The notes below the pieces were generated by a model, which saw only the letters and a program-made list of their open reading frames with translations, searched no databases and was not told the DNA's origin. This document shows positions 16,255 to 61,523 of a stretch of 64,000 nt of DNA, in pieces (within the stretch, counting starts at the first letter, position 1; every line of letters begins with the position of its first letter). The position numbers and the translations under genes are program-made. The stretch comes from a virus (lineage: Duplodnaviria; Heunggongvirae; Uroviricota; Caudoviricetes). The DNA lies in IMG/VR virus record IMGVR_UViG_3300037852_000238, one strand, 5' to 3'.

Positions 16255-16466
16255 AGCGACAGCGCCGCGAACGCCGCGCGCAGCTCGGCCAGCCGCGCGC
16301 GGATGAGGTCGCGCAGCTCGGCCGCGACGCCGGCCGGCACCGGCGCGGTCCCGGCGCACCAGCGGCGCACCGCGCGTGCGTCGACGCCGAGCGCCGCCGC
16401 GAGCTGCGGGCGGAACTCGGCGCCGAAGAGCGCGGTGCCGGTCTGGGTTAGGAGGGCGGGGGTCAC
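16251..16466 (-). CDS. small HTH-like protein
   Basis: C-terminal part of listed ORF; AALGVDARAVRRWCAG helix-turn-helix-like; probable GTG start near 16464. Confidence 0.4.
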   Translation of the reverse strand: MTPALLTQTGTALFGAEFRPQLAAALGVDARAVRRWCAGTAPVPAGVAAELRDLIRARLAELRAAFAALSL

Positions 16467-17125
16467 AGCGCTACCACCCGGTTGACGATCGTTTGCCGTT
16501 CGCCGCGGTAATCCGAGTGGTCCTTTACCGTCGCCTTGATCGTCAGCTTCGAGCCTTCCTTGCGGTAGAAGCTCGCCGACTTCGAGACCAGCAAGTTGCC
16601 CGTCGCGTCGCGCATATTGACGATGTAGACGGTCTCGTAGCCGTCGCCGTTGAACTGAATTCGGCCGAACGAGTGGACGCGTTCGACCTCGACCTCCGCT
16701 GTGATGCGGTTCCTGACGGCGCCGACGTAGTCGGACGCCGCACGCTTGGCGGCGCGCTCCGCATCCGTCATGATGCGGTTGCGGACCGCATTTAGCTGGG
16801 CGTCGCTTAGGGCCGCTTCGCGCGCGGCGCGGCGTAGTAGGCTCGCGGCGAACTCGTTGTCCTCGGGCTGAGCGCGGAGCCACGCTAATACGTCGCCGTT
16901 CGCGACCTCAAACGCCTCGCGACGAACCGCCGCTTCAGCGGCAATCTCGGCAGCCTTTACCGCGACGACCGCCAGCTTCTTCGCGTTGCGCTTTTCGGCC
17001 GCGGCGTTCAGCTTCGCCAGCTTCTCCGCCGTGTGGAGCCGCTCCGAGGCGGCGCTGCCGAGGCCGGAGCCGGCGCAGTCGTAGCAGGTATAGCCGGTGT
17101 GGCGCCACTGCTCGCCGCCGCCCAA
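16463..17125 (-). CDS. hypothetical protein (220 aa) with N-terminal CxxC pair
   Basis: Long ORF with protein-like composition opposite the late operon. Confidence 0.5.
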   Translation of the reverse strand: MGGGEQWRHTGYTCYDCAGSGLGSAASERLHTAEKLAKLNAAAEKRNAKKLAVVAVKAAEIAAEAAVRREAFEVANGDVLAWLRAQPEDNEFAASLLRRAAREAALSDAQLNAVRNRIMTDAERAAKRAASDYVGAVRNRITAEVEVERVHSFGRIQFNGDGYETVYIVNMRDATGNLLVSKSASFYRKEGSKLTIKATVKDHSDYRGERQTIVNRVVAL

Positions 17126-17227
17126 GCCACCGCACCGACGACACTTGGCCGTATAGACGTAGAACGGAACGCCTTTCGCGTCTTCGTGATTCGGGTTGCG
17201 GACCTTACTGTGGCGGTTGAAAAGGGC

Positions 17228-17262
17228 GGTCGTTCTTATGCCCTCCGGTCATAAGAACGACC
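17228..17262 (-). terminator. 13-bp perfect stem hairpin (GGTCGTTCTTATG / CATAAGAACGACC, 9-nt loop), weak T-run on minus strand
   Basis: Seen directly; overlaps stop of gene 17236..17442; followed on minus strand by GCCCTTTTC. Confidence 0.3.
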
Positions 17263-17442
17263 AACTTCGGCGATTTCCGTTACACCATCCACCGGCGGAT
17301 AGCGCCGCGCGATGGCGACGTACTCGGCGTCACCAAGCCCGGTGTCGTCTCCGAGGTTCAGGTAGCTGTAAACGTAGCGGCACTCCTCGTCCGGGTCGAC
17401 GGCTAGGAAATAGACGGTTATCGTGGCGATTTCGTGCGTCAT
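17236..17442 (-). CDS. hypothetical protein (68 aa)
   Basis: ATG with GGAGGG RBS; first gene downstream of motif copy 1. Confidence 0.45.
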   Translation of the reverse strand: MTHEIATITVYFLAVDPDEECRYVYSYLNLGDDTGLGDAEYVAIARRYPPVDGVTEIAEVGRSYDRRA

Positions 17443-17491: not shown

Positions 17492-17525
17492 TAACTTACG
17501 CGCTTTACTCAGCGGAGTAAATAGC
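17492..17525 (-). promoter_or_regulatory. copy 1 of 34-nt two-box motif TAACTTACGCGC-N13-GTAAATAGC
   Basis: Five same-orientation, same-spacing copies in the window, all 5' of minus-strand genes; on minus strand reads TTTACT-N17-TAAGTT. Confidence 0.55.
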
Positions 17526-17539
17526 AAAAAGGAGCCAAC

Positions 17540-18163
17540 GTGGAAAAAAGATTGACCCGCCGCTGGCTGCTGGCCGGCGCCTCGACGGTTGCGCTGGCGG
17601 GGTGCGCGCAGCCCCTAGTAGGCCCACCGGGACCAAGCCCTGTACCGCCGAGCAACACCCTCGGTCAGTATCTCGCTGCGATCATCTCCGGGCTCTCCGG
17701 CGAACTCGGAGCGTTAGGGCAGGTCGTCGGGATCACTCCGGCGGCCGTGGCGCAGATCTCTGACATTACCACCAAGCTGTTATCCGGGCAGCAGGTAAGC
17801 GCCGCCGAAGTGGTCGGAGCGGTTAACACGATCGTCGGCATCCTGGCGCCGCTCGGCGAGGCCGCGCTGGGGCCGTACGGTCTGGCACTCGCTGCAGCCG
17901 TAGCGTTGCTTCCGCTCGTCGAGCGGCTTGCAGGGCTTCCGGTTGCTGCGTCGCTACCATTACGCGCCGCGGCGCTTATGGACGAGCAGCAGGCGCTCAA
18001 TATATTGCGCCGAGCAGCTTCCGGATCACTGTCCGTGACCCCTGTTCCAGCCCCCGGCGCTTCTGCGCGCTTCCCCTCGCGCCGCCAGTGCGTCAGCTCG
18101 CGCACCGGGGCGATGTTTACGCCGCGGCACGCCAACGCGCGGTGCAAGATCCCGGTGCAATGA
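17540..18163 (+). CDS. lipoprotein (lipobox LAGC), 207 aa
   Basis: GTG start with AAAGGAG RBS; signal peptide plus Cys. Confidence 0.55.
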   Translation: MEKRLTRRWLLAGASTVALAGCAQPLVGPPGPSPVPPSNTLGQYLAAIISGLSGELGALGQVVGITPAAVAQISDITTKLLSGQQVSAAEVVGAVNTIVGILAPLGEAALGPYGLALAAAVALLPLVERLAGLPVAASLPLRAAALMDEQQALNILRRAASGSLSVTPVPAPGASARFPSRRQCVSSRTGAMFTPRHANARCKIPVQ

Positions 18164-18351
18164 AATCTCCGTCATTTGGCGCGCTCCCCCCTCCAAATTT
18201 GGAGTGGCAAATAGGTAAATCTGTGGCTGAAATATCGCTGATAGTACGTCTGGAACGAGTGCTTCAGTTTATGGATCGGCCAACAAGCCCGGCGGGAGAA
18301 TTGCTTCGGGAGATAATTGAAGAACGTAAGTGCTCGCCTGCGACCCGCTGA
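18160..18351 (+). CDS. small hypothetical protein (63 aa), low-GC
   Basis: ATGA overlap with lipoprotein stop; AT-rich relative to genome. Confidence 0.35.
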   Translation: MKSPSFGALPPPNLEWQIGKSVAEISLIVRLERVLQFMDRPTSPAGELLREIIEERKCSPATR

Positions 18352-18575
18352 CCTACATCAGTGTCGACGCCCCGGCCTGGGCTCGCGTCAGGATCGCCGC
18401 GGCGCGCTACGTGACGATCGACGCCGACGCCGGCTGGGCTACCTCGCGCGGCTTCGCGTTCGCCTGGGCGTACGACCCGCGCGCCGGGGTGCTAACGATT
18501 CGGGTTGACGACCGGCCGCCCTCCGTGCCTTGTGAGTCGATCGCGACGGTTATTGGCGGGGCGTTGAGCCGCTAG
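18330..18575 (+). CDS. hypothetical protein (81 aa)
   Basis: ORF with typical codon composition; overlaps previous gene end. Confidence 0.3.
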   Translation: MLACDPLTYISVDAPAWARVRIAAARYVTIDADAGWATSRGFAFAWAYDPRAGVLTIRVDDRPPSVPCESIATVIGGALSR

Positions 18576-18703
18576 GAAGCCGTTACGCGCGCGGAAGCGG
18601 TTTTAGGCTAGGGTAACTACGCCCGCGGCCGTTCCGCGCACCTACGGGTTCCCTAGGGGCTCTAGGTTGGCCTTTCTATGAACGAGAGGGAGTTAAGCGT
18701 AAG

Positions 18704-18889
18704 ATGAACCCACGTTGCCCTCATTGCGGCAAGTTTATGAACCTGGGGTGGAATGCCGGCATGATCGTTTGGCAATGCCCCAGCGCGGGTCTTGGTTGGT
18801 CGGACGGGGTGCATCCCGTTTCGATTACGACTACAAGCACCACTGGCAACAGCTTCGCGGGTCTGCCTTACAAGCAACAAACGCAATAG
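18704..18889 (+). CDS. small zinc-ribbon-like protein (CPHCG…WQCP)
   Basis: GAGGGAG RBS upstream; two Cys pairs. Confidence 0.45.
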   Translation: MNPRCPHCGKFMNLGWNAGMIVWQCPSAGLGWSDGVHPVSITTTSTTGNSFAGLPYKQQTQ

Positions 18890-18900
18890 GGGGAACCCCG

Positions 18901-19707
18901 ATGCCCCTCCACCGACAATATGGCCGGCGTCCGCGCCGCTTCAACCCGAATATCCCTCACATGTCGTCCCTCCGCATGATGCGCGGCCGCGCGCCGCTGC
19001 CGCCGATCCCGGACTCCGCCGACTACGGCGCCAAGCTGCCGGCGGATGTTGGCATGCTGATGAACGATTCGTTGGGCGACTGCACGTGTGCTGGCGTCCT
19101 CCACGCCATCCAGACGTGGACCGCGAACGCGGGCACGATCGCCCCGGTAACGGACGCCAACGCGCTGGTGCTGTATGAGGCCTGGGCGGGGTATAATCCG
19201 GGCGCGCCGCGCGCGACCGACGGGACCAACCCGACCGACGCCGGGGCGGACGAGCAGACGATCCTGACCGACTGGGCGACGGAGGGCTTCTACCTGACGG
19301 CCGGCGGGCCGGTAGACCGCCTCGCGGCCTTCGTCGAGCTCGACCCGCGCAACCAGGGCGACGTGCGGCGGGCCATCTACACGGGCGCTGTGGTGTATAT
19401 TGGATTCAACGTGCCAAAGAGCCTGGAGAACACCGACCCGGCGCCGTTCTCCTGGGACGTGGTGCCGGGGCAGACGCAGTCGGTGGGCGGGCACTGCGTT
19501 ATCCTAAATTCCTACACCCTGAGCGACTTCGGCCTCGTGAGCTGGGGATTGAAGTACCGCATGACCAACGCCTTCTTTTCGACTTTTTGCGACGAGGCTT
19601 ATGCCCTGGTCAGTACGGACTGGATCGCGGCCGGCGGCGCGACGCCGCTCGGCATGTCGCTCGCCGACCTGGAGAAGCAGATGGGGGCGCTGCGCCGCGC
19701 CGCCTAG
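18901..19707 (+). CDS. papain-like (C1-like) cysteine peptidase candidate
   Basis: LGDCTCAGVLHAI (Cys nucleophile context like QGxCGSCWAF) and VGGHCVILNSY (His context like GGHAV); start chosen at ATG 18901 with GGGGGA RBS. Confidence 0.55.
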   Translation: MPLHRQYGRRPRRFNPNIPHMSSLRMMRGRAPLPPIPDSADYGAKLPADVGMLMNDSLGDCTCAGVLHAIQTWTANAGTIAPVTDANALVLYEAWAGYNPGAPRATDGTNPTDAGADEQTILTDWATEGFYLTAGGPVDRLAAFVELDPRNQGDVRRAIYTGAVVYIGFNVPKSLENTDPAPFSWDVVPGQTQSVGGHCVILNSYTLSDFGLVSWGLKYRMTNAFFSTFCDEAYALVSTDWIAAGGATPLGMSLADLEKQMGALRRAA

Positions 19708-19733
19708 CTACACGCACCTTAGAGCGCTTCCAA

Positions 19734-19765
19734 CGCCCCGCCTCGCGCGGGGCGTTTTGCGTTTT
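19734..19765 (+). terminator. rho-independent terminator (8-bp GC stem, TTTTGCGTTTT tail) at convergence point
   Basis: CGCCCCGC-ctcgc-GCGGGGCG followed by T-run; lies between convergent genes. Confidence 0.7.
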
Positions 19766-20796
19766 CACTTCCACCCGTTAGGCTGATCCACGACCACCGT
19801 CGAGCCGGCGCGGTCGACCGCGACCGGCACCTCGATCGGGTCACCCAGCGCCACCTTGACGGCCGCGCGGCGCTCGGGCTCGACGACGAGCAGAAAGAAT
19901 CCCCCGCCGCCCGCACCGAGCAGTTTTCCACCGACCGCGCCCGCGGCCCGCGCGCGCCCGTACAGCGCGTCTACGGCGGCGGGCGCGACGCCGGGGGCCA
20001 GCCCGCGCTTAACGCGCCAGGCGGCGTCCAGGAGCGCCCCCAGCTCCGTCACGGGGCATCGGGGGTCGGTCAGGATCGCCTCGGCGTCGTTAACCATCGC
20101 CGCGAGTGCGGCCAGCCCACGCGCATTCTCGTTGATGCGCGCGATCTTCACCGCTTCGACCTCGGCCGCGACCCGCGTCGTGCCGGTGTAGACCAGCATC
20201 AGGTGGGCTAGTATTTCAACCTTACGGCTTGGAGAAATCTCTAACGGATGGATTCCGATAATGTTCGGCTTAAAGCCGGCCTCGATCTCCTCCGGCGTCG
20301 CTCCGAACTGTAACCGATTGAAACCTCCGAACGCCGCGAAGACCTGATCCTGCGACCCCACTGCCTCGCCGATCAGCGCCTGCTCCACGTGGATCGCGTC
20401 GCTCGCCAGCTCCTCCGGCGAGAGCCGGCGGCCGTCCAGCGTCGCCGCGGCGTTGAGCAGCCCCACGGTGAAGGCCGACGACGAGCCCATCCCACTCATG
20501 TGCGGGATGTCGCCGGCGTGGTGGAGCTCGTAGCCCTGGCCGGGCGCGCCGACCGCGCGCAGCACCTCGCGGGCGGCGGGGTGCGCGATCTCGTCGACCT
20601 CGCGCACCAGCTCGGTGCGCGACCACACGATGCGGTGGCGGTGAGCGAAGTAGGGTGGCAGGCGGCGCAGCGAGATCCAGCAGTATTGCGCGAGTGCGAA
20701 GCCGAGCGTGGCGCCGCCGTGGGCGCGGTAGTGCGCGGGCAGGTCGGAGCCGCCGCCGGCGAGGCTGATGCGGTGCGGTGTTCGGGTGATGATCAA
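19765..20796 (-). CDS. hddA: GHMP-family sugar kinase, D-glycero-alpha-D-manno-heptose 7-phosphate kinase (HddA)-like
   Basis: GHMP motif PHMSGMGSSSAF; Gly-rich C-terminal GGKLLGAGGGGF; size 343 aa. Confidence 0.75.
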   Translation of the reverse strand: MIITRTPHRISLAGGGSDLPAHYRAHGGATLGFALAQYCWISLRRLPPYFAHRHRIVWSRTELVREVDEIAHPAAREVLRAVGAPGQGYELHHAGDIPHMSGMGSSSAFTVGLLNAAATLDGRRLSPEELASDAIHVEQALIGEAVGSQDQVFAAFGGFNRLQFGATPEEIEAGFKPNIIGIHPLEISPSRKVEILAHLMLVYTGTTRVAAEVEAVKIARINENARGLAALAAMVNDAEAILTDPRCPVTELGALLDAAWRVKRGLAPGVAPAAVDALYGRARAAGAVGGKLLGAGGGGFFLLVVEPERRAAVKVALGDPIEVPVAVDRAGSTVVVDQPNGWK

Positions 20797-20801
20797 GGTA
20801 T

Positions 20802-21023
20802 TTAACGCTGATAAATTGGGTTCTTTTTCTCAAACTCTTTACGGCGAGCAACGCAAATGCGAACTCGCTCAACGATCCTTAAATCAAAAGGCGCCACGCT
20901 CGTTGGATCAGAGTTAAATTCGGCGTTGATTAAATCGAGTAAGATGTGGGCTTCTTCGTCATTTTTCCAGCTATCTTCCATTTCTCGCTGCCGCTTGCTA
21001 CTCATTCTTGGAGTTTTATCCAT
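20802..21023 (-). CDS. small low-GC hypothetical ORF inserted between hddA-like and hddC-like genes
   Basis: AT-rich island (approx 20800-21020) inside GC-rich operon; 73-aa ORF. Confidence 0.3.
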   Translation of the reverse strand: MDKTPRMSSKRQREMEDSWKNDEEAHILLDLINAEFNSDPTSVAPFDLRIVERVRICVARRKEFEKKNPIYQR

Positions 21024-21028
21024 CTAAG

Positions 21029-21616
21029 TTATGGTGCCTCCCGCTCCGCCCGCGCCAGACCCTCCGGCGAACCGATATCCCAGAACGCGCGGCAGCAGCC
21101 CACCGGCAGCGCGCCCCATGTGGGCTGCCGCCGGTCCAGCCACGCGCGCGGTAGCAGGTGCACGCCAGACTCGACGTGGGCCAACCCTACCGGGGCCACC
21201 GCGACCAACCCGACGGGCACGCGCTGGGAGGTGTAGACCGTCAGCAGGGTCCGCCAGTCCAGATCCACCAGCGTGTCGCCGTTGACGACGGCGACGGGGT
21301 CGGAGAGTTTGGAGAATGCCTCTGCGATGCTGTTCAGCGCGTGTGGGATCGAGCGCGGCTCGGGCTCCTCCCAGTTTACCGTCGGCATCGAGGTTATCAT
21401 CCTCGGAAGCGCGCGCCGGATTTGCTCCGCCCCATAGCCCAACGCCAGCACTGCGCACTGGAACCCGGCCGCGGCGAGCTGGCGCAGTAGTGCCTCGGCG
21501 AACGGCCGGTCGCGGAAGGGCGCGAGGAACTTCGGCACGCCGGGTGGTAATGCCGGCGCTAGGCGCGTGCCTTGGCCGCCGCAGAGGATTATCACATCTA
21601 GGTCAGCGGGGGTCAC
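21029..21616 (-). CDS. sugar-1-phosphate nucleotidyltransferase (heptose-1-P guanylyltransferase HddC-like)
   Basis: N-terminal IILCGGQGTRLAP…PKFL signature of NTP-transferase family; GTG start overlapping next gene. Confidence 0.7.
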   Translation of the reverse strand: MTPADLDVIILCGGQGTRLAPALPPGVPKFLAPFRDRPFAEALLRQLAAAGFQCAVLALGYGAEQIRRALPRMITSMPTVNWEEPEPRSIPHALNSIAEAFSKLSDPVAVVNGDTLVDLDWRTLLTVYTSQRVPVGLVAVAPVGLAHVESGVHLLPRAWLDRRQPTWGALPVGCCRAFWDIGSPEGLARAEREAP

Positions 21617-21903
21617 GGCTTGACCAGCTTGACGACCTTCTCCCGCTCGGGTTCGTCGACCCAGTTCAGGAAGGCTCGGACCCCGGCGTAATCGTCGAAG
21701 ATCTTGGCCGGCGCGCCCTCGTCGCCGGGCTTCAGCATCAGTAACCGGAGATCCACGACGTAGCAGCCGAACTTGTTCGGTTCGCCCGTGCTCGGGTTCA
21801 GCGCGCGGACCAGGTAAAGGTGGCGGGTCTGGCGCCGCTCGAAGCGCGCGAGCTGCCAGTAGTCGTCCGGCATATCGAGCATCAGGTAGAGGCCGATCAT
21901 CGG
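21613..21903 (-). CDS. hypothetical protein (about 96 aa; internal ATG start chosen)
   Basis: C-terminal portion of listed ORF is protein-like; the N-terminal extension is not. Confidence 0.35.
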   Translation of the reverse strand, partial: PMIGLYLMLDMPDDYWQLARFERRQTRHLYLVRALNPSTGEPNKFGCYVVDLRLLMLKPGDEGAPAKIFDDYAGVRAFLNWVDEPEREKVVKLVKP

Positions 21904-23406
21904 AGCAAGTCCCTGTCTAAAGTGTAGGAAAGCATCTTCTCCACCTCCGCCACGGCGCCGGGGCCGAACCGCGCGCGGAGCATCGCGCGGTACTCGGGGG
22001 AGGAGAAGTAAGTGACGTGGGCGGCGTCGCGGAAGCGGAGGATGTCGGCGGCCGAGAGGTGTGCGTTGCGCAGCGGCACCGTGTGCCGGTTGTGCTGCGA
22101 GTACGCCGCCCAGCTCGGTGGCAGATCCTCCGGCCGCTCGCGCGCGACCCGGTCGTAGAGCGGCGAGCCGGGGTACGGCATGGCGCAGTAGAAGTTGGCC
22201 CACTCCGCGTTGAGGCGCTGGGCCAGCGCAAGCGTCTCGCGCATCGACGCTTCGGTGTCGTCGGGCAGCCCGAAGATGTAATTGCCGATAACGTTAATGT
22301 CGGCGCGGCGGATCGCCAACACGGTCGTCTCAATCCCGAGGTTGCCGTCGCCGCGTAAGGCTTTGTTGGTTCCAGCGCGGACCTCGCTCGACCCCGACTC
22401 GATCCCGAGCGCCAGCCAACGGATGCCGGCCGCGCGCATCAGCGGCAGATCCTCCTCGCGCACGGTATCGGTGCGGGCGTAGGCCCAGACGTTGATGTCG
22501 TTACCAATACCAGAATCGACTAGCCATTGGCAGACCGCACGATAATGATTTTTTGATAAAACAAAAAGTTCGTCTACGATCTTGAATGTCCGTACACCAC
22601 GTTCGCGGTAGAGCCAGACCATCTCCTCGACGACCGCCGCGGGCGAGCGGCGGCGGTAGCGGTTCGTGTGCTGAAAGACGTTGATCATGCAGAAGTCGCA
22701 CGTGTAACTGCATCCGAGTGACGTATACACCGCCGCGTAGGGCGACGACCGCGGCCAACCGTCCAGGCACTGCCAGTTGTGGGCGCGGTAACGCGATGGC
22801 TCGGGCAGTAGGTCCCACGTGCGGCCGTGGAGGTCGCGGTCAAGGTCAAGTGGTGGAGCGAGGGGGTTGCGAACGATCTCGGCGCTCCGCCAAACCAGAC
22901 CGGGGATCTCGCCGAGTTTGAAGATGTAGCTACCTCTTTCGGGGTCATCTTTCGAGGGTGACTCCCCTAACCGTAAAAGGGCATCTAGGGTTATCGGTCC
23001 TTCACCGTCGATGACAAAATCACATGGCTCCTCGCGAAGTGTTTGTTCGGGTAGGGCGGAAGGGTGGTTGCCGAGAAGGATTACTTTCGAATGGTCCTTA
23101 TGATTTAAACCTATTTCCCAAGCCACCGCCCGCGCACCCGGTAGAGCCTGCGTGCTGGCGCTGGGCTGGTGGCCGTGGACACAGATCGCAACGACCCGCG
23201 GCCGTAGGAGCGCGACCTTGGCAGCGATCTCCGCCGCGCTCAACCCTTCCACCTCCTGGTCGACGATTGTGACCGACCACCCGCGGTCGCGCAGGTAGCC
23301 GGCGATCAACCGGGGCCATAGTGGTGGCTCGCGCGCGACGAGCTCACCGCCGAGCGGGCCGTATATGCCGTGGACGCCTCCGGGATGTATCAGAACGATA
23401 TCAGTC
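21897..23406 (-). CDS. B12-binding domain radical SAM protein (class B, likely C-methyltransferase)
   Basis: N-terminal B12-binding-like Rossmann segment; CSYTCDFC = CX3CX2C radical SAM motif; GTG start VTDIVLIHPGG. Confidence 0.75.
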
Positions 23407-24190
23407 ACACGAACATCTCCTTCTCCACCGCTGCGCAGATCGTGTGGCCGATCGCCAGGTGGATCTCCTGGATGACCGGCGTCTCGTCGCTCGGGGCGCG
23501 GATCAGGACGGCGACATGCTCGGAGTGCTCCCGTAGGACGTGGCCGCCGTCCGCGCCGGTCATCGCAATCACCTTCATCCCGCGCGCGAAGGCGGTGTCG
23601 ATCGACCGCAAGACGTTCGGGCTCCTGCCCGACGTGCTTATCACCACTAGAACGTCGCCGGAGTTTCCCAGGCCCGCTATCCACCGGGCGAAGGTCCAGT
23701 CGTACCCGTAGTCGTTCCCGAGTGCGGTCAAGGTCGCCGGCTCGGTCAGCGCGATCGCCGCCAGCGGCGCCCGATCCCGCGCGTAGCGCTCGACGAGCTC
23801 GGCCGCCAGGTGCGCCGCCAGTGCCGCGGAGCCGCCGTTGCCGCAGAGCAAGACCTTTCCGCCAGCGCGGAGAGCGGTGGTGATTAGCTGGGCCGCGTTG
23901 TCTACGGAAGTGAGGTAATCGACGTCGACTGCGAGGCGATTGAATGCGGTCATAAAGTCGTTAATATGCTTATTCATGCCTTCAGGTACCTCACGCTTTA
24001 GTGCATCAATTATAGCGCCCGCAGCTTTACCGACCTCGGTTGAGCGGTCTAAATTGGCGGTCATCCGTAATACGAACTCGGCGTTGCCGCCGAGCAATAT
24101 TCGGCGTATCTGTTCCTTCTTGCTCATCCGTTGAAAGTCTTCGTACATCGCTTCTTCAAGGCTCGGAAACGGCATCACACATTCCCCCAC
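23405..24190 (-). CDS. gmhA: SIS-domain phosphoheptose isomerase (GmhA-like); possible shorter start at MNKHI
   Basis: GGKVLLCGNGGSAA…ISTSGRS…GMKVIAMTG SIS motifs; AT-rich N-terminal extension. Confidence 0.7.
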   Translation of the reverse strand: MGECVMPFPSLEEAMYEDFQRMSKKEQIRRILLGGNAEFVLRMTANLDRSTEVGKAAGAIIDALKREVPEGMNKHINDFMTAFNRLAVDVDYLTSVDNAAQLITTALRAGGKVLLCGNGGSAALAAHLAAELVERYARDRAPLAAIALTEPATLTALGNDYGYDWTFARWIAGLGNSGDVLVVISTSGRSPNVLRSIDTAFARGMKVIAMTGADGGHVLREHSEHVAVLIRAPSDETPVIQEIHLAIGHTICAAVEKEMFV

Positions 24191-25125
24191 TGGTGCCGTG
24201 GAAACGCCGCGTAGAGCTTGAGCAACTCATCAATCCCCTCCACCAGCCCGCGTCGCGCGCGGAAGCCGGCCGCGGCCAGCCGCTTGTTGGAGACGAGATA
24301 ATCGCGGGCATCAGGATCGCGCCCCTCGACCTCGAACCAACGGAACCCCGGCACCCGCGTGCGGATCGCCTCGCACAGCCCGCGTTTGGTGATGTTGGCT
24401 TCGTCGTTGCCGAGGTTGAAGATGCGCTCCGCGCTCGGAAGACCTTTCCAGATTACGCGCGGTGGATCGATCGCCCATAAGATTGCGTCCGCCACGTCCC
24501 TGACGTGCACGAAGTTCCGCCGGGCCGCACCGTCATACAGCGCTACCGCCTCGCCGCGCGCGGCCTTCAGCACGAAGTCGTTGACCAGTAAGTCGGTTCT
24601 CATCCGCGGACTAGCACCCATGACGGTCGCCAACCGAAACACCACCGCGTTCGGGTGCTCCAACACCACGGCCTCGCCCTCGCACTTGGTCCGCGCATAT
24701 AGCGACAGCGGCCGCTGCGGCGCGTCCTCGGTCAGCGGCTCGGCGCCGCCGGTGCCGTAGGCGGAGTTGGTGTTGGGGTAGATTAGGAGCTGGCGCGGCG
24801 AGAGCAGGCCGACGAGCGTGCGCACGGCGTCCCGGTTGGTTGAGACGGCAGCAGCGGAGTCAGCGTCACACGCCGGTGCGCCGACGATCGCGGCTAGATT
24901 CACCACCGCGTCCGCACGGGCCACCAGCGGGCGCAGTGTCATGGCGTCCCGCATGTCGCCTCGCACCAGTTCGAACCGCGGGTCGGCGCAGCACGCGGCC
25001 AGCGCGAGAGCCTGGTTGTAGCGGAGGTTGTCGACGATGGTGACGCTATATCCTCTGTCGAGCATCATTCGGGCCATGACGCTCCCCAGATACCCCGCGC
25101 CGCCGAGCAGAAGGACGTGATCCAT
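24175..25125 (-). CDS. NAD-dependent epimerase/dehydratase (SDR) family protein
   Basis: LLLGGAGYLGS Rossmann motif; 316 aa. Confidence 0.8.
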   Translation of the reverse strand: MDHVLLLGGAGYLGSVMARMMLDRGYSVTIVDNLRYNQALALAACCADPRFELVRGDMRDAMTLRPLVARADAVVNLAAIVGAPACDADSAAAVSTNRDAVRTLVGLLSPRQLLIYPNTNSAYGTGGAEPLTEDAPQRPLSLYARTKCEGEAVVLEHPNAVVFRLATVMGASPRMRTDLLVNDFVLKAARGEAVALYDGAARRNFVHVRDVADAILWAIDPPRVIWKGLPSAERIFNLGNDEANITKRGLCEAIRTRVPGFRWFEVEGRDPDARDYLVSNKRLAAAGFRARRGLVEGIDELLKLYAAFPRHQWGNV

Positions 25126-25413
25126 TTATTCCCCCGTGACTCCGAACGAGCCCTTCGACGGTGGCCGCGTCGGTAACGCCGCCTCCCGCCCCGTCAACGG
25201 CCTTCGCGGCCGGCGGAACAACCGCCGCTTCGCCCGGTACGCGGCCGGTAGGCAGTCCCAGCAGCGCCACTCGCCCCGGTACGCGAACAGCCGCCAGCCG
25301 TCACGGTGCGTCCGGCCGCAGGCGCAGGTGGGGGTCACCGGGCGAGGTACCACAATAGTTGACCGAAAGCGAATCCCGCAAACGGGGCCACCAAAGGTAG
25401 CGCCCGTAACCAT
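25126..25413 (-). CDS. small Cys-rich hypothetical protein
   Basis: Abuts SDR gene; CxC…CxxC. Confidence 0.3.
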   Translation of the reverse strand: MVTGATFGGPVCGIRFRSTIVVPRPVTPTCACGRTHRDGWRLFAYRGEWRCWDCLPAAYRAKRRLFRRPRRPLTGREAALPTRPPSKGSFGVTGE

Positions 25414-25446
25414 AAAGGTCGCCGGGTGAGTCGTTTCAGTTCAACC

Positions 25447-26589
25447 TCATAATACCTCCCTCATAACAGCCACCGCCTTCTCGATAAGTTCCGGTATCGG
25501 CCACGGCGCGCAACCCAGGAACATGCCTCGCTCATGCACGAGATCGGCCCGCGGCGTCTTCTGGTCACGCCATGGCACGCCGTATGGATGCTTTAGGAAC
25601 GATCCGCCCGTCGGCGGCCGGCTGTCGATCCCGGCCATGGCCAGCGCTCGCGCCAACGGCGCACGGCGCGTGGGGTCGAGGACCTCAAATGCGAGGCCGA
25701 ACGGTGACGGGGTTCCGCGTTGCTGCTGGTGCTGTATCGGCGCTTCGAGCGTGCAGGCAATGAAATGAGATATGTTTCGGCGCCTGGCAAAAATCATCTC
25801 GTCGAGCCGTTTTAATTGTTTGCGGGCGACCGCGCAATGCGCCTCGACCGGTCTTACATTGTAGCCGAATAGACTGAACGAATAACGCCCCTCGAATTCC
25901 TCCCGCCCCCAGCCCTCGTTCCCGTGGTTGCGCAGCAGGCGGCAGAGCCGCGCCAGCTCGTCGTCGTCGGTGAGTATCCAGCCGAGTTCGACGGCACTAA
26001 TTTGGTGGGAGTAGAAGCCCGAGCCGGTCGAGAGGTCGCCGAACGTGCCGGTCAGTCGGCCTTCCGACGTCCGCCCGCCGATTGATTCGCAATTGTCCTC
26101 AAGGAGTAGCTGCTTTTGCCAGCGGGAGGTCGCGCAACGCCAATCACTTAGGTGGCCAGGACTTCCCAAGATCGACGCGATGACGGTTAGCGGCTCGCTC
26201 CTCGTAAGCGGCGCGTTCCAGGTATCATCCACGTCGATGATCGTTGGCCAATAACGGTGCTGTAGGGCCGGGCTATAGGTTGTTGACCATGCGACTCCGG
26301 GCGCGACGAAGCGTCCCTCGTAAGGACCTTCTTCCTCGTTGATGTATCCTTCATCGACATGCCAATGCCTGATCGCCGCCACCGCCACCAGGTTCGCGCT
26401 CGACCCCGAGTTTACGGCGATAGCGTGCCGCCGGCCATGGTAGGCCGCGATCTCTTCCTCGAACGCCTCGGTCTCAGGTCCCATGGTCAGCCGGCCAGAG
26501 CGCAGCACGCGCTCGTACGCGGCCCATTCGGTGGAGCCGTCATACGGTTTCCACGACGAGAATGCAGCGGGAAAGAGCCAATCTTTCAT
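25447..26589 (-). CDS. DegT/DnrJ/EryC1/StrS-family PLP/PMP sugar aminotransferase or 3-dehydratase
   Basis: Fold-type I sugar aminotransferase blocks (SGSSANLVAV, EDNCESIGG, LRNHG); residue at canonical Lys position unclear (FYSHQIS). Confidence 0.75.
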   Translation of the reverse strand: MKDWLFPAAFSSWKPYDGSTEWAAYERVLRSGRLTMGPETEAFEEEIAAYHGRRHAIAVNSGSSANLVAVAAIRHWHVDEGYINEEEGPYEGRFVAPGVAWSTTYSPALQHRYWPTIIDVDDTWNAPLTRSEPLTVIASILGSPGHLSDWRCATSRWQKQLLLEDNCESIGGRTSEGRLTGTFGDLSTGSGFYSHQISAVELGWILTDDDELARLCRLLRNHGNEGWGREEFEGRYSFSLFGYNVRPVEAHCAVARKQLKRLDEMIFARRRNISHFIACTLEAPIQHQQQRGTPSPFGLAFEVLDPTRRAPLARALAMAGIDSRPPTGGSFLKHPYGVPWRDQKTPRADLVHERGMFLGCAPWPIPELIEKAVAVMREVL

Positions 26590-26894
26590 TATTTTGGCTC
26601 GAAGAACTTAGCGTCGGGGCCGCAAGCACCTTCTGGCCTCCGAAGATCTCTAGGATCTTGGTAGGTGAAGTACGTCCTGCCACTAATTATGCTTTCGGTT
26701 TTGCGGAGGAGCTCTGTCCGGTGGCAGCGAAACCCGATGAATTCGCCACTGATATTCTCGAAGGCGTTGCAGTCCTGGCAACCCTTCGTCGTTTTCGCGG
26801 GAGGTGGGCGGTTATCTTTGACCGCGGTTCTTTGTATAATACTGGGCTCCGTGACTCGACGCTTTAGGAATTTAAACATCGTATCTCTCCGCAT
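26589..26894 (-). CDS. low-GC hypothetical protein (101 aa)
   Basis: AT-rich island 26590-26880. Confidence 0.3.
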   Translation of the reverse strand: MRRDTMFKFLKRRVTEPSIIQRTAVKDNRPPPAKTTKGCQDCNAFENISGEFIGFRCHRTELLRKTESIISGRTYFTYQDPRDLRRPEGACGPDAKFFEPK

Positions 26895-27399
26895 GTTCGA
26901 TCAGCATCGACGACCCCCCGTGCGCCAGCGCCGCGCGGTAAGCCGGCACTACGGCCGCGGCGTCCGTTAGGTCAAACACCAGCACAGTGCGCAGCATCTG
27001 CTGCAGGTGCCACACGAAATTCGGCCCGGTCAGGTGCTGCGGGCCGGGGTCAAGCGGCCGGTCGTGAGCGACCGCGACCCGGATCAGGACGCGCGGCCGG
27101 TAGCCCATCAGCGGCAGCGCGTCGAGGTGGTTCACGAGCTGGTCCATGCAGCGCATCAGGAAGGACGCGCGTGGGTAGCACGACACCACTGGCCGCCCCG
27201 AGGCCAACGAAAGGCCGATGGCCATTCCGAGTTGAAGCTCCTCGCATACAGGCATCTCAACAAGCGCGGCGTCCGGCAGATGATCCAGCGTCCCGCGCAG
27301 CGCCGTGCCGCCGGCCAGGACCGACTGCCCGATTATCGGCGCACCGGCCGCGGCGCACAGCGACATCGCCTCGCGGAGGGCGGCGGCATAGGTCATCGG
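26872..27399 (-). CDS. thiamine-diphosphate enzyme beta-like subunit (transketolase C-terminal / E1 beta-like)
   Basis: Internal ATG start MTYAAALREA; transketolase C-terminal-like blocks. Confidence 0.65.
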   Translation of the reverse strand, partial: PMTYAAALREAMSLCAAAGAPIIGQSVLAGGTALRGTLDHLPDAALVEMPVCEELQLGMAIGLSLASGRPVVSCYPRASFLMRCMDQLVNHLDALPLMGYRPRVLIRVAVAHDRPLDPGPQHLTGPNFVWHLQQMLRTVLVFDLTDAAAVVPAYRAALAHGGSSMLIEHAERYDV

Positions 27400-27590
27400 A
27401 ACGCGCCGAGAAGATTGGCTATGTGAAGTCCGGCGCCGACAGTAACTAACACGCCGAGAACAATTGCGAGTAGGAGCCACCACCCGCCGCGCTCGACCGC
27501 CATAAGTATCGGTGAAACGCAGAACACCGCGAGGATGGCGAGACGCGATACGGACCAAGCGGCGTTTCTAATCATCGAAACCATCCAACG
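27393..27590 (-). CDS. small two-TM membrane protein
   Basis: Hydrophobic segments LAILAVFCVSPILMAV and WLLLAIVLGVLVTVGAGL. Confidence 0.3.
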   Translation of the reverse strand, partial: RWMVSMIRNAAWSVSRLAILAVFCVSPILMAVERGGWWLLLAIVLGVLVTVGAGLHIANLLGAFR

Positions 27591-27708
27591 ACCATGTCGA
27601 TAAACTGGATCACGTCCATCGTTAACCAGACGATAACGACGCGGCCGGCCCAGGCAAGCTCGCGCGGCGTCAGCGACTGACCGGAGAGGATGCGGTGGAG
27701 GGTGTCCA

Positions 27709-35553: not shown

Positions 35554-35580
35554 CGCGAGTCTCCTCGGTTTCAACGCGCC

Positions 35581-35614
35581 TAACTTACGCGCTTCCCACG
35601 GCGGAGTAAATAGC
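35581..35614 (-). promoter_or_regulatory. copy 2 of 34-nt two-box motif
   Basis: TAACTTACGCGC-N13-GTAAATAGC. Confidence 0.55.
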
Positions 35615-35622
35615 TAATTTCG

Positions 35623-44831: not shown

Positions 44832-44835
44832 CGCG

Positions 44836-46821
44836 TTACCTTACGCTATTCCGGGCGTGAAGTAAATCGACTCCGAGGTCTTCGGCGAGGTGCACGGTCT
44901 CCTCGCAATAGCGCAAGTAATCGATGTCTGGCGGCAGCTCATTGGTGATTTCAAGGAGGGGGCGGCTCCCCTCCGTCTTGGCCACGCGGCGCTTACCGTC
45001 GAGGATCGGCGCGCCGTCAGTTGAATAATAGTAGCGCACGGCGCGGCCCAGCGGGTGTCCACGCCAGGTGCCACCGCCGCCAACCTTTATCACCGTGACG
45101 AACGCGCGCGGGTCGCGGCAACCGCGAATCGTGTCCTCCAGCGGTGCGCCATCTTTGACATAACGGAGGATGGCCTCACTGCACACCGTCATCTGAGGAT
45201 TCTTCATCATCTGCCCGCGTAGGTCGCCCTCGGTCCAGGGGTCCGAGATCCATCCCTTGCGCTTGACCTTGCCGTCCTCGCGCAGTGCGAGGTACGTGTT
45301 GACCGAGCTGTTGTAGATCGCGCGGTAGGAGGTTTCCTCGACCGCGAAGCCGGTTTCCGTTTCCCAGCCGCGCAAAAGGGCGGATAATTCATCCGCTTTG
45401 TTGCGCGAGCAATAAAATAACACCCCATCCGTATTAGCCGACACCACCGGCACCCCGGCCGCCTCGGCGCGCTCGATCAGCATCAAAATTGATAATTGAC
45501 CTGTCAAAGTTGTCGAAATCAGCAGGTGTGGAGCGTAAAGCGGCGAGTATTGCGACCCGAGCTTCCCGTACACCCCATTGAGTGCGATGCGTCCACCGTC
45601 GGCGCGGACCTTGTCGCCGGCCGCCTTGGCCGCCAGGCGCTCCTTGATCAACTTACCGTAGATATCCAGGAACGCTGGGCCGAGGGCCTTGGGGTAGAGC
45701 CCGAGCTTCACGATGATATTAGGGTACTGTGACGCGACGTCGCAATCTATCAACTGATGCTCGGCGTCGGAACGCAGCGCGCGGTGGGCCTCAGTTGAGT
45801 GCAGGCCACCGATGCCGAGCGTGTACGTCGCGGCGCCGATCCGCACGCTAAAGCCCTTCAGCGCCGCGGCCTCGATCTTGCCGAAGGCATTGACGTAGAA
45901 ATCGGTCGCGGTGAAGCGCTCCAATACCGCGACCAGGCGCGGGTCCTCGAACCGAATAAACGGCGGCGCGGTGTAGCGGAAGCCGGCGCGCTCCGGCCCA
46001 GGCTTCTCGACGCGGCGGCCGAGCGCCGCCTCCGCGCGCTTCTTGACGATCGCTTCGCCGATCTGCGCGTCGCTCTTAGAGCGCAGGTCGATCCGGTACT
46101 CGCGCGATAAGGCGATTCGAAGCTCGATCGGCTCGCGCAGCGCGGCGTATAGCCCCTCCGTCGCGTCGAGGTCGTTAAAGCAGTACAGCGTCGCGAAATT
46201 CATCTGTTCGCGAGTGAGCCAGGTGTCTTCCGGGTAGGGCAGGTCCACCATGAACCGGCCATGGAGCCGGCCATGAAGCATCTTCAGCCCTTGTCGCACC
46301 GAGGGATTGGGCTCGATCAGGTCGATATGGTTGTACCGCGGCAGCCGTAGGCCTAGTTCCTTTTCGACAGTCCAGGGCTTCATATCGTGTTTAACGATCT
46401 GATCGCTGGCGGCCTTGAGCCGCGCGTTATCGGCGCTGGCCAGCGCGAGCGCGAGAATCGGCATGTCGTAGGCCAGCCCGTTGAACGAGATCAGCAGGTT
46501 GCTCTGGAGGACGGCCTGCAGTCCCGCGCGGTCGAGTCGGGAGCGCTCGCTCAGCTCGAAAGCTAGTCGCTTGCCGTCTTCGAATCGCTTGAAACAGACG
46601 ACGAAAAAATTGCGGAAGACTTCAACATCGATCCCGACGGCAGAGCGCGAGTCGTGGTTCCAAGCAGCCTCGTCGAAGACGAGCCGTTCTTCGCCTGCGG
46701 CTCGTAACAGCTCGGCGTGATGCGCGCGGAAAGGGTCGTGGAAGCCCTGGCGCGCGGCCGGAGGTGGCGGAGGTGCACTCCACCGCGGCGAAAACAGGCC
46801 GAGCTGTAGAGCGTTGGTCAT
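44836..46821 (-). CDS. family B DNA polymerase
   Basis: Motif A DVASQYPNII (DxxSLYPSII), motif B ALNGVYGKLGS (KxxxNSxYG), motif C SANTDGV (YGDTDS-like). Confidence 0.75.
   Translation of the reverse strand: MTNALQLGLFSPRWSAPPPPPAARQGFHDPFRAHHAELLRAAGEERLVFDEAAWNHDSRSAVGIDVEVFRNFFVVCFKRFEDGKRLAFELSERSRLDRAGLQAVLQSNLLISFNGLAYDMPILALALASADNARLKAASDQIVKHDMKPWTVEKELGLRLPRYNHIDLIEPNPSVRQGLKMLHGRLHGRFMVDLPYPEDTWLTREQMNFATLYCFNDLDATEGLYAALREPIELRIALSREYRIDLRSKSDAQIGEAIVKKRAEAALGRRVEKPGPERAGFRYTAPPFIRFEDPRLVAVLERFTATDFYVNAFGKIEAAALKGFSVRIGAATYTLGIGGLHSTEAHRALRSDAEHQLIDCDVASQYPNIIVKLGLYPKALGPAFLDIYGKLIKERLAAKAAGDKVRADGGRIALNGVYGKLGSQYSPLYAPHLLISTTLTGQLSILMLIERAEAAGVPVVSANTDGVLFYCSRNKADELSALLRGWETETGFAVEETSYRAIYNSSVNTYLALREDGKVKRKGWISDPWTEGDLRGQMMKNPQMTVCSEAILRYVKDGAPLEDTIRGCRDPRAFVTVIKVGGGGTWRGHPLGRAVRYYYSTDGAPILDGKRRVAKTEGSRPLLEITNELPPDIDYLRYCEETVHLAEDLGVDLLHARNSVR
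44837..44870 (-). promoter_or_regulatory. degenerate copy 5 of 34-nt two-box motif (TACCTTACGCTA-N13-GTAAATCGA)
   Basis: Same spacing and orientation; directly 5' of dCTP-deaminase-like gene. Confidence 0.4.
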
Positions 46822-52390: not shown

Positions 52391-52452
52391 CGCTTGACGA
52401 ACGTGCGACTCTGGTCGGTAGCGCTTCCCGTTGTCAAAGCGATGAGAGGCGA

Positions 52453-57020: not shown

Positions 57021-57023
57021 CCC

Positions 57024-58458: not shown

Positions 58459-58492
58459 TAACTTACGCGCTTTCATCAGCGAGGTAAATAGC
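58459..58492 (-). promoter_or_regulatory. copy 3 of 34-nt two-box motif
   Basis: TAACTTACGCGC-N13-GTAAATAGC. Confidence 0.55.
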
Positions 58493-58581
58493 AAAGATGG
58501 GCGTCGCCCCGAATTTTTCCACCGCATCGGGGCCACCGCGGCTTGGACGGCGCGACGCTGAGGGGGCGCCGCGCTGCTGGA

Positions 58582-61484: not shown

Positions 61485-61518
61485 TAGCTTACGCGCGAGG
61501 GCGGCGGAAGTAAATAAT
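61485..61518 (-). promoter_or_regulatory. copy 4 of 34-nt two-box motif (TAGCTTACGCGC-N13-GTAAATAAT)
   Basis: Same spacing and orientation. Confidence 0.5.
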
Positions 61519-61523
61519 AAAAG

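What the first reader, a model, noticed from the sequence alone, without database searches (positions are those of the whole stretch)
17492..17525. Five-copy, fixed-spacing 34-nt motif upstream of leftward transcription units
The motif TAACTTACGCGC-N13-GTAAATAGC occurs at 17492, 35581, 58459, 61485 and, degenerate, at 44837. Orientation and 13-nt spacer are identical in every copy, and each copy lies in an intergenic gap just 5' of a minus-strand gene. On the transcribed strand it reads GCTATTTACT-N17-TAAGTT, a plausible -35/-10 pair (TTTACT/TAAGTT). The extra conserved flanks (GCGCG before the -10, GCTA before the -35) suggest a phage-specific promoter class or a regulator-binding site. Copy 1 sits in the divergent region that also feeds the rightward lipoprotein gene.
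Basis: seen in the sequence. Interest (0 to 1): 0.6.

Follow-up and report, generated by a model that had tools for sequence, protein, structure and literature searches.

The report
Repeated phage promoter with TTTAC box
The repeated 34-base motif is most likely the standard promoter that an uncultured 104-kb phage (probably infecting an alphaproteobacterium) places before its leftward early and DNA-metabolism gene blocks, which makes it a clean but ordinary kind of feature.

Summary
Read on the minus strand, the motif is (G)CTATTTACt-N14-GCGCGTAAGnTA. It occurs five times in the window, all in one orientation, where 0 matches are expected by chance. Two more copies lie just outside the window on the same approximately 104-kb phage contig.

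The invariant bases form a -35/-10 pair, TTTACt-N17-TAAGnT. Positions -12 T, -11 A and -7 T are fixed and -8 is free. An A+T-rich stretch lies upstream. Start codons lie 21-44 nt downstream of the predicted start site in five copies. In copy 5 the start site falls on the ATG, and copy 4 has a leader of about 190 nt.

The nearest relatives share 47-54% helicase identity and have otherwise unrelated intergenic DNA. They carry the same architecture: TTTAC-N17..19-TAnnnT occurs 17 times in sense-oriented intergenic DNA, against 1 time in 119 kb of other sequence.

In a closer relative, a 71-nt promoter-plus-leader block is 93% conserved while both flanks are unrelated.

I found no phage sigma factor, no RNA polymerase, no stable RNA structure and no conserved dyad.

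Verdict: this is a sigma-70-type promoter class of a phage clade, with T instead of G at -33, as in T4 early promoters. It is a new member of a known kind and of modest interest. Promoter activity itself remains untested.

The parts
17492..17525 (-). Promoter copy 1. Minus-strand sequence: GCTATTTACTCCGCTGAGTAAAGCGCGTAAGTTA. The -35 box TTTACT is at 17521-17516 and the -10 box TAAGTT at 17498-17493. The predicted +1 is near 17486, giving a 44-nt leader to the ATG at 17442 (RBS GGAGGG). It would drive the two-gene leftward island 17442-17236 and 17125-16463.
35581..35614 (-). Promoter copy 2. The -35 box is at 35610-35605 and the -10 box TAAGTT at 35587-35582. The predicted +1 is near 35575, giving a 22-nt leader (GTTGAAACCGAGGAGACTCGCG) to the ATG at 35553. 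It lies directly downstream of the HTH_3 gene 35623-36165.
44837..44870 (-). Promoter copy 5, degenerate: TCGATTTACTTCACGCCCGGAATAGCGTAAGGTA. The -35 box is at 44866-44861 and the -10 box TAAGGT at 44843-44838. It is embedded in the 3' end and TAA stop of the DNA polymerase gene (44836-46884). The predicted +1 coincides with the A of the ATG at 44831 of the dCTP-deaminase-like gene, so the transcript would be leaderless.
58459..58492 (-). Promoter copy 3. The -35 box TTTACC is at 58488-58483 and the -10 box TAAGTT at 58465-58460. The predicted +1 is near 58453, giving a 35-nt leader to the ATG at 58418 (RBS GAGGGAG). It would drive the 186-aa gene and the downstream thymidine-hypermodification genes.
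61485..61518 (-). Promoter copy 4: ATTATTTACTTCCGCCGCCCTCGCGCGTAAGCTA. The -35 box is at 61514-61509 and the -10 box TAAGCT at 61491-61486. The predicted +1 is near 61479. About 190 nt without a credible ORF follow before the ATG at 61286.
17526..17535 (-). Example of the A+T-rich stretch just upstream of the motif (about -48 to -39). It is 50-80% A+T in the six intergenic copies, against 36% for the genome, and may act as an UP-like element. The equivalent stretches are at 35615-35624, 58493-58502 and 61519-61528.

Best explanation
The motif is the core of a family of sigma-70-type promoters. They fire leftward (minus strand) into the early, replication and nucleotide-metabolism blocks of an uncultured ~104-kb contractile-tailed phage. 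The host is probably an alphaproteobacterium.

Shown by sequence and comparison:
- The element has two blocks with fixed spacing, aTTTACt at -36..-30 and TAAGnT at -12..-7, separated by 17 nt.
- G/C-rich bases lie at -15..-13, and an A+T-rich tract lies upstream of -38.
- All copies point toward the downstream genes.
- The same architecture is conserved in related phages.

Inferred:
- The host RNA polymerase carrying its primary sigma factor (RpoD) binds these sites.
- It opens the -10 element and starts about 7 nt downstream.
- The transcripts have leaders of 21-44 nt with strong ribosome-binding sites. One would be leaderless (copy 5) and one would have a long leader (copy 4).

The T at -33, where hosts have G, is a clade-specific signature. 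It parallels the GTTTAC box of T4 early promoters.

The near-identity of the copies, and the shared 20-nt leader in three of them, is best explained by spread of one promoter-leader cassette. That cassette also marks mosaic junctions between related phages.
For: - Statistics: five copies in the window against 0 expected. No other site comes near them in a matrix scan. Two more copies lie in the 10 kb beyond the window, and none lies in the 20-kb rightward tail/baseplate block.
- Positional logic: in seven copies ATTTAC and GCGTAAG are invariant. The -10 reads TAAG[T/C/G/A]T, so only -8 varies while -12 T, -11 A and -7 T are fixed.
- Context: six copies are intergenic. The ATGs lie downstream with GGAG-type ribosome-binding sites, and the sequence upstream is A+T-rich.
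- Relatives: in six loci, TTTAC-N17..19-TAnnnT occurs 17 times in sense-oriented intergenic DNA (10.3 kb). It occurs 0 times in sense-oriented coding DNA, 0 times in antisense intergenic DNA and once in antisense coding DNA (119 kb). The TTGAC version occurs only 3 times in sense-oriented intergenic DNA.
- Match to host-type consensus: the L010 sites read CTTTAC-N17-CTATAT or CTATAA. That is the rhizobial sigma-70 consensus CTTGAC-N17-CTATAT (PMC2873474) with a single G-to-T change.
- Footprint: relative L021 keeps 71 nt of promoter, leader and ATG at 93% identity. The DNA upstream and the first ORF downstream are unrelated, and homologous coding DNA further on is 85.5% identical.
- No rival machinery: Pfam scans of the window's predicted proteins from 14.4 kb to the window end, together with the precomputed Pfam hits for genes called on the same contig, show no sigma factor or RNA polymerase. 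There is no conserved RNA or DNA fold (consensus energy -0.18 kcal/mol) and no Rfam hit.
- Host clues: a GcrA-domain gene, a DNA polymerase closest to those of Rhodobacter phages, and a helicase closest to those of Rhizobium phages.
Against: - There are no transcription data.
- The match to the E. coli consensus is only 7 of 12, and the generic promoter scan does not list these sites.
- The host is not identified, so its real consensus is unknown.
- About 25 kb of the genome could not be read and might encode a sigma factor or other transcription factor.
- The invariance of GCG at -15..-13, of G at -9 and of CTA at -39..-37 is more than a plain housekeeping promoter needs.
- Within this phage the -10 block also fits the 'CGT' element of ECF-type promoters.
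- Consistent terminator hairpins upstream are lacking, so these are not clean unit boundaries.
Confidence: 0.75

Rival explanations
1. The sites are promoters, but host RpoD holoenzyme alone does not use them. Under this reading they need a phage-made or virion-delivered factor. Candidates are an Alt-like ADP-ribosyltransferase acting on the alpha subunit, a sigma-appropriation or activator protein reading CTATTTAC, or a divergent phage sigma factor reading TTTAC-N16-CGTAAG. That would explain the clade-specific T at -33 and the extra invariant bases.
For: - The TTTAC form outnumbers the host-like TTGAC form 17 to 3 in sense-oriented intergenic DNA of the clade.
- There is extra invariance at -39..-37 and -15..-13.
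- T4 early promoters have GTTTAC at -36..-31, and the T at -33 is linked there to Alt-modified polymerase (PMC1524935).
- Relative L012 encodes an 835-aa protein with an ADP-ribosyltransferase domain.
- This phage has a 424-aa multi-HTH protein with a GcrA domain next to copy 6, and L014 has a multi-HTH protein with faint sigma region-4 hits.
- Within this phage, AC-N16-CGT fits ECF-type geometry.
Against: - No sigma factor, AsiA/MotA-like protein or ADP-ribosyltransferase was found in the 84 kb read.
- The multi-HTH proteins are not shared between relatives.
- The relatives lack CGT at the -10 and have ordinary TAnnnT or CTATAT boxes, so one common recogniser is most simply the primary sigma factor.
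- The box sits at the normal -35 position with a 17-nt spacer, not at -30 like a MotA box.
Confidence: 0.15
2. The motif is mainly an operator for a phage DNA-binding protein. The candidate is the HTH_3 protein at 35623-36165, binding as a dimer to the imperfect inverted repeat TTTAC-N17-GTAAG.
For: - An imperfect dyad is present in all copies.
- An XRE-type HTH gene lies immediately upstream of copy 2.
- The conservation is stronger than most promoters show.
Against: - The dyad is only 4 of 5 and is not present in the relatives' sites, which keep only the -35 and -10 positions.
- All copies have one orientation tied to gene direction, and the flanks (GCTA... and ...TTA) are asymmetric.
- The half-sites alone are not enriched.
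- No copy lies away from a gene start.
Confidence: 0.05
3. The repeat is chiefly a recombination linker (a mobile cassette boundary), or some other DNA-level signal, with no role in transcription.
For: - The 71-nt block is conserved at a mosaic junction between this phage and L021.
- Three copies share the whole leader.
Against: - The conserved positions follow promoter logic (-12, -11 and -7 fixed, -8 free), and the spacing is fixed at 17.
- Relatives with unrelated spacer sequence keep the same boxes.
- Linker activity and promoter function are not exclusive, as shown for the PeSL cassettes of T4-type phages (PMC2839356, PMC4122927).
Confidence: 0.03

Closest known systems
Primary-sigma (sigma-70/RpoD) promoters of Alphaproteobacteria: CTTGAC-N17-CTATAT in Sinorhizobium (PMC2873474), and TTGaCgS / GCtANAWC in Caulobacter (PMC8144410)
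   Same: - Two boxes at -35 and -10 with the same spacing (TTxAC-N18-TA).
- G/C immediately before the -10 TA.
- Location in front of genes.
- Sites in relative L010 equal the rhizobial consensus except for one base.
   Different: - T instead of G at the third -35 position, consistently.
- In this phage the -10 is TAAGnT rather than TATAT, and GCG rather than GC precedes it.
- The copies are far more alike than host promoters are.
Bacteriophage T4-type early promoters (GTTTAC at -36..-31 plus a sigma-70 -10; PMC1524935)
   Same: - A phage-specific, highly uniform version of a host sigma-70 promoter.
- xTTTAC at exactly -36..-31, with T at -33.
- Invariant -11 A and -7 T.
- A+T-rich DNA upstream.
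- Many copies in front of small genes of unknown function.
   Different: - The phage lineage is unrelated and the host class differs.
- The -10 is not TATAAT.
- No Alt-like enzyme was found in the 84 kb read.
- Only 7 copies were seen, against dozens in T4.
PeSL mobile regulatory cassettes of T4-like phages (PMC2839356, PMC4122927)
   Same: A conserved early-promoter cassette sits at the boundary of swapped genes. The 71-nt block is kept at 93% between two phages while the neighbouring ORFs differ.
   Different: No consistent stem-loop or terminator accompanies the promoter here. Only one junction was observed.
ECF-sigma promoters (AAC-N16/17-CGT)
   Same: Within this phage the invariant bases can be read as AC-N16-CGT.
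   Different: - The -35 is TTTAC, not GAAC.
- The relatives lack CGT.
- No ECF sigma gene was found.

Membership tests
sigma-70-family (primary sigma) -35/-10 promoter | Two conserved hexamers separated by 17 +/- 1 bp | tested here: met
   TTTAC[T/C]-N17-TAAGnT in all 7 copies. Relatives have 16-18 bp.
sigma-70-family (primary sigma) -35/-10 promoter | -12 T, -11 A and -7 T are the most conserved -10 positions, with the inner positions freer | tested here: met
   TAAG[T,T,T,C,G,C,A]T: -8 varies and -12, -11 and -7 are invariant. Relatives have TAnnnT.
sigma-70-family (primary sigma) -35/-10 promoter | Lies upstream of, and is co-oriented with, transcription units | tested here: met
   All 7 copies are co-oriented with the downstream genes and 6 are intergenic. 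In the clade the counts are 17 sense-oriented intergenic against 1 elsewhere.
sigma-70-family (primary sigma) -35/-10 promoter | Close match to the canonical TTGACA/TATAAT consensus | tested here: not met
   The match is 7 of 12, and the consensus scan does not list the sites. The fit to the alphaproteobacterial consensus is better in relatives (PMC2873474).
sigma-70-family (primary sigma) -35/-10 promoter | Transcription start 5-9 nt downstream of the -10; dependence on host RpoD | not testable with these tools
   There are no expression data, and the phage and host are uncultured.
T4-type early promoter | xTTTAC at -36..-31 with T at -33 | tested here: met
   ATTTAC at -36..-31 in all 7 copies. 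The T4 definition is taken from PMC1524935.
T4-type early promoter | Belongs to a T4-like phage that has an Alt ADP-ribosyltransferase | tested here: not met
   Tail and baseplate proteins are of the Pam3/E217 type. No ADP-ribosyltransferase domain was found in the 84 kb read. 25 kb remain unread.
ECF-sigma promoter | AAC at -35 and CGT at -10, with a cognate ECF sigma gene | tested here: not met
   The -35 is TTTAC. CGT is present only in this phage and not in the relatives. There is no Sigma70_r2/r4 hit.
Single-subunit (T7-like) or N4-like phage RNA polymerase promoter | A contiguous block of about 20 bp, or a hairpin, plus a phage RNA polymerase gene | tested here: not met
   The architecture is two blocks with a variable spacer. 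There is no hairpin and no RNA polymerase domain.
T4 MotA-type middle promoter | An activator box centred at -30 that replaces the -35, 11-13 bp from the -10; MotA and AsiA present | tested here: not met
   The box occupies the normal -35 position with a 17-bp spacer. No MotA or AsiA homologues were found.
Repressor operator / stoperator | A dyad or asymmetric site found independently of gene orientation, and conserved as a binding site | tested here: not met
   The dyad is weak and absent in the relatives. Orientation is strictly tied to the genes, and the half-sites are not enriched.
PeSL-type mobile regulatory cassette | An early promoter plus an adjacent stem-loop flanking shuffled ORFs | tested here: inconclusive
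   One mosaic junction with a conserved cassette was seen. No consistent stem-loop was found.

The most novel reading that the evidence does not exclude
The clade-wide T at -33, together with the extra invariant bases (CTA at -39..-37, GCG at -15..-13, G at -9), may not be drift of a housekeeping promoter. It could be the signature of a polymerase-redirection mechanism in a group of alphaproteobacterial phages that carry hypermodified DNA. A phage-delivered factor or polymerase modification, or recognition of hypermodified thymines in the T-rich boxes, would then make these promoters preferred over host TTGAC promoters. This would be analogous to, but independent of, T4 Alt with GTTTAC.
Probability: 0.15. 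Interest if true: 0.6.

Novelty: new member of a known kind. Interest (0 to 1): 0.3.

Why it matters
The motif gives a ready-made transcription map for an uncultured ~104-kb phage that carries thymidine-hypermodification and sugar-biosynthesis genes. At least seven leftward units are defined, including one predicted leaderless transcript and one with a long leader.

It also defines a simple searchable signature, TTTAC-N17-TAnnnT in sense-oriented intergenic DNA, for a clade known only from metagenomes. The recurrence of T at -33 in an unrelated phage lineage echoes T4 early promoters. It offers a testable case of convergent promoter tuning by phages. Beyond that, it is an ordinary regulatory element.

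Tried and rejected
- Known-phage identity: megablast of 5 kb around copy 1 against 50,697 phage records gave no match.
- Motif scan of IMG/VR: one hit (L001), unrelated by tblastx and so a chance match.
- Motif scan of metagenome contigs: 20 hits. Nineteen were unrelated low-GC chance matches, and only L021 was a true relative.
- Close relatives of the helicase in IMG/VR (single-protein query): none. With an alignment query, 22 loci were found, but those below ~46% identity mostly lack the TTTAC signature. The class is therefore limited to the nearest clade.
- Relatives in 185,579 bacterial and archaeal genomes: none, so no host could be assigned.
- RNA explanations: no Rfam family and no tRNA. 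The consensus fold of the seven copies has ~0 kcal/mol. The long leader after copy 4 folds with z = -1.7 only.
- Upstream terminators (PeSL-like stem-loops): not consistent.
- Rhodobacter phage RcPutin, the best DNA polymerase hit, is not otherwise related, so I did not pursue it.
- Shared candidate regulators between relatives (multi-HTH proteins): no homology.
- A 508-nt apparent gap at 51945-52452 turned out to be an uncalled methyltransferase gene rather than a second regulatory region.
- A rightward promoter for the lipoprotein gene inside copy 1: only poor candidates (CTTACG-N17-TAAATA, which lacks T at -7). This is unresolved.

Full report
**Observation**

The pattern TAACTTACGCGC-N13-GTAAATAGC, allowing up to 3 mismatches, matches four places: 17492, 35581, 58459 and 61485. 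All are on one strand, and 0 matches occurred in 100 dinucleotide-preserving shuffles.

Read on the minus strand, the copies align without gaps as (G)CTATTTACt-N14-GCGCGTAAGnTA. The fifth, degenerate copy at 44837-44870 keeps ATTTAC-N15-GCGTAAGnTA exactly.

A weight-matrix scan of both strands finds nothing else comparable. The next best site scores about 16 bits, against 37-52 for the copies. In leave-one-out scoring each copy, including the degenerate fifth, ranks just behind the other four window copies and ahead of all remaining positions in the window; for copy 4 the margin is only 0.1 bit (17.2 against 17.1).

ATTTAC and GCGTAAG on their own occur at about chance frequency. The unit is therefore the two-block composite with fixed spacing.

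**What the window is**

The DNA is 64% G+C and has no near match among 50,697 phage records. Its layout is as follows.
- The plus strand from 1 to about 19.7 kb encodes tape-measure, baseplate, tail-fibre and lysis-type genes.
- Within that rightward block, 16463-17442 forms a small leftward island.
- From 19.7 to 64 kb nearly everything is on the minus strand. This includes:
  - a sugar-nucleotide cluster;
  - a class II ribonucleotide reductase, a dCTP-deaminase-like gene and a DNA polymerase;
  - an MT-A70 methylase;
  - a full set of thymidine-hypermodification genes;
  - a Pam3 gp34-like gene and an SNF2 helicase.

There is no tRNA and no Rfam family.

Exact-protein look-ups place the window on a 103-kb contig, at 100% identity over the parts compared. 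The window spans the contig's ends, so the genome is about 104 kb. I could read 84 kb of it.

A GcrA-domain gene just outside the window suggests an alphaproteobacterial host. So does the similarity of the polymerase to Rhodobacter phages and of the helicase to Rhizobium phages. No relative was found in bacterial genomes.

**More copies**

The 10 kb beyond the window end hold two further copies.
- L005 1288-1321: GCTATTTACTCCGCCGCCGAAAGCGCGTAAGCTT
- L005 4676-4709: CCTATTTACTTCGCCGCATCCCACGCGTAAGATA

Both are intergenic and co-oriented with the genes. The 20-kb rightward structural block (L007) has none.

**Anatomy**

- The invariant bases across the seven copies are ATTTAC and GCGTAAG.
- The -10 hexamer reads TAAG[T/T/T/C/G/C/A]T. 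Position -8 is free, while -12 T, -11 A and -7 T never change. This is the pattern expected from recognition by region 2 of a primary sigma factor (established knowledge).
- TTTAC[T/C] lies 17 nt upstream.
- The ten bases upstream of the motif are 50-80% A+T in the six intergenic copies, against 36% for the genome.
- The predicted start site is a purine in five of seven copies.
- Leaders are 44, 22, 35, 21 and 21 nt, with GGAG-type ribosome-binding sites.
- Copy 5 overlaps the last codons and the stop of the polymerase gene, and it places +1 on the A of the next ATG.
- Copy 4 is followed by about 190 nt without a credible ORF.
- Apart from these sites, the leftward block has almost no true intergenic DNA. 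An apparent 508-nt gap is an uncalled methylase gene.

**Relatives**

The helicase has homologues at 47-54% identity on long metagenomic contigs. I fetched five of them. Their intergenic DNA is not alignable to this phage, yet it carries the same architecture.
- L010: CTTTACA-N16-CTATAT or CTATAA
- L012: CTATTTACT-N16..18-TAnnnT
- L014: TTTACT-N17-TAAAGT, TAAACT or TAATAT
- L015 and L016: equivalent sites

Over the six loci, TTTAC-N17..19-TAnnnT occurs as follows.

| Location | Count | DNA scanned |
|---|---|---|
| Sense-oriented intergenic | 17 | 10.3 kb (both intergenic rows) |
| Antisense intergenic | 0 | |
| Sense-oriented coding | 0 | 119 kb (both coding rows) |
| Antisense coding | 1 | |

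The host-like TTGAC form occurs only 3 times in sense-oriented intergenic DNA.

The L010 sites equal the rhizobial sigma-70 consensus CTTGAC-N17-CTATAT (PMC2873474) except for G-to-T at the third -35 base. More distant relatives, below ~46% helicase identity, mostly lack the signature.

**Footprint in a closer relative**

A metagenome scan with the motif gave 20 hits, of which 19 were chance matches. The true relative, L021, keeps 71 nt from TAAATTA through both boxes, the leader and the ATG at 93% identity. The DNA upstream and the first ORF downstream are unrelated, and homology resumes 316 nt later at 85.5%.

Copies 2, 6 and 7 of this phage also share nearly the whole leader, GTTGAA(A)CCGAGGAGACTCGCG-ATG; copy 2 has one extra A and copy 7 begins CTC instead of GTTG. 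The element therefore behaves as a conserved promoter-leader cassette at mosaic junctions. This resembles the PeSL cassettes of T4-type phages (PMC2839356, PMC4122927), although without a consistent stem-loop.

**Mechanism**

Best explanation (confidence 0.75): these are sigma-70-type promoters used by the host polymerase with its primary sigma factor, driving the leftward early, replication and nucleotide-metabolism units. The architecture, orientation and conservation are shown. Recognition by host RpoD, and a start about 7 nt downstream of the -10, are inferred.

No sigma factor, RNA polymerase, MotA/AsiA-like protein or ADP-ribosyltransferase domain was found in the 84 kb read.

The T at -33 matches the GTTTAC box at -36..-31 of T4 early promoters, where it is linked to Alt-modified polymerase (PMC1524935). 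That is a resemblance in function, not membership.

**Rivals**

- Factor-dependent promoter (0.15). The evidence for it:
  - the clade's preference for TTTAC;
  - the extra invariant bases;
  - an ADP-ribosyltransferase-domain protein in relative L012;
  - multi-HTH proteins in the early regions.
- Operator for the HTH protein at 35623-36165 (0.05). The dyad TTTAC/GTAAG is weak and absent in the relatives.
- Pure recombination linker (0.03).
- An RNA or DNA structure is rejected.

**Limits**

- There are no expression data.
- The host is unidentified.
- 25 kb of the genome are unread.
- The promoter of the rightward lipoprotein gene next to copy 1 was not found.

**Verdict**

This is a new member of a known kind and of modest interest.

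Noticed in passing
window 47858-57857, minus strand: A complete-looking thymidine-hypermodification gene set. It includes two 5-hmdU DNA kinase helical-domain genes (48929-49783, 51078-51944), a thymidylate-synthase-like gene (50058-51077) and a PAPS-reductase-like gene (48216-48932). It also has two HMUDK_HMUD1 genes (52453-53579), an ADDT gene (53576-54370) and a PLP enzyme (57024-57857). The phage DNA probably carries hypermodified thymines (compare PMC5889632 and PMC8989533).
   Followed up: partly
window 19765-28344, minus strand: A sugar-nucleotide biosynthesis cluster inside a phage. It includes a GHMP kinase, a nucleotidyltransferase, a B12-binding radical SAM enzyme and a SIS-domain isomerase. 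It also has an NAD epimerase/dehydratase, a DegT-type aminotransferase and E1/transketolase-like subunits. Its purpose is unknown; DNA decoration and surface glycan are both possible.
   Followed up: no
L005 1-1272 (just beyond the window end; equivalent to window position ~72.7-73.9 kb): A 424-aa protein with several helix-turn-helix repeats and a GcrA cell-cycle-regulator domain, directly upstream of motif copy 6. It is a candidate phage transcription regulator and a hint that the host is an alphaproteobacterium.
   Followed up: partly
window 35553-35580; L005 1322-1350 and 4710-4738: Three promoter copies share a near-identical 21-22-nt leader, ending AACCGAGGAGACTCGCG-ATG. It contains a GANTC site (GACTC), the target of CcrM-type methylases.
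   Followed up: partly
L021 (Ga0070765_100614135) 794-864 versus L005 4669-4739: A mosaic junction. The 71-nt promoter-leader cassette is 93% conserved, while the upstream DNA and the first downstream ORF are unrelated (53 aa here, 112 aa in the relative). Homology resumes further on at 85.5%.
   Followed up: yes
window 44831-44843: The -10 of copy 5 overlaps the TAA stop of the DNA polymerase gene and places the predicted +1 on the A of the next ATG. The dCTP-deaminase-like gene may therefore be expressed from a leaderless transcript as well as by read-through.
   Followed up: partly
window 61287-61484, minus strand: About 190 nt downstream of copy 4 hold only 12-aa and 32-aa ORFs and a GC-rich hairpin (61411-61428). 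This could be a long leader or a small RNA. The fold z-score is only -1.7.
   Followed up: partly
window 51945-52452, minus strand: An apparent 508-nt gap in the gene calls actually reads as a DNA adenine methyltransferase-like ORF with an NPPY motif. Neither my caller nor the contig's gene calls picked it up.
   Followed up: partly
window 17505-17510, plus strand: The spacer of copy 1 contains TTTACT on the opposite strand, 30 nt before the GTG of the lipoprotein gene (17540), but no TAnnnT follows at the right distance. The promoter of the rightward genes 17540-19707 is unidentified. A strong bidirectional terminator hairpin lies at 19732-19756.
   Followed up: partly
L010 11717-13195; L012 1-2380; L016 14998-17311: The relatives differ in accessory content. 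L010 has an IS605/TnpB insertion next to the helicase. L012 has an 835-aa protein with an ADP-ribosyltransferase domain. L016 has 7-deazaguanine synthesis genes (PTPS, QueC, GTP cyclohydrolase I).
   Followed up: no
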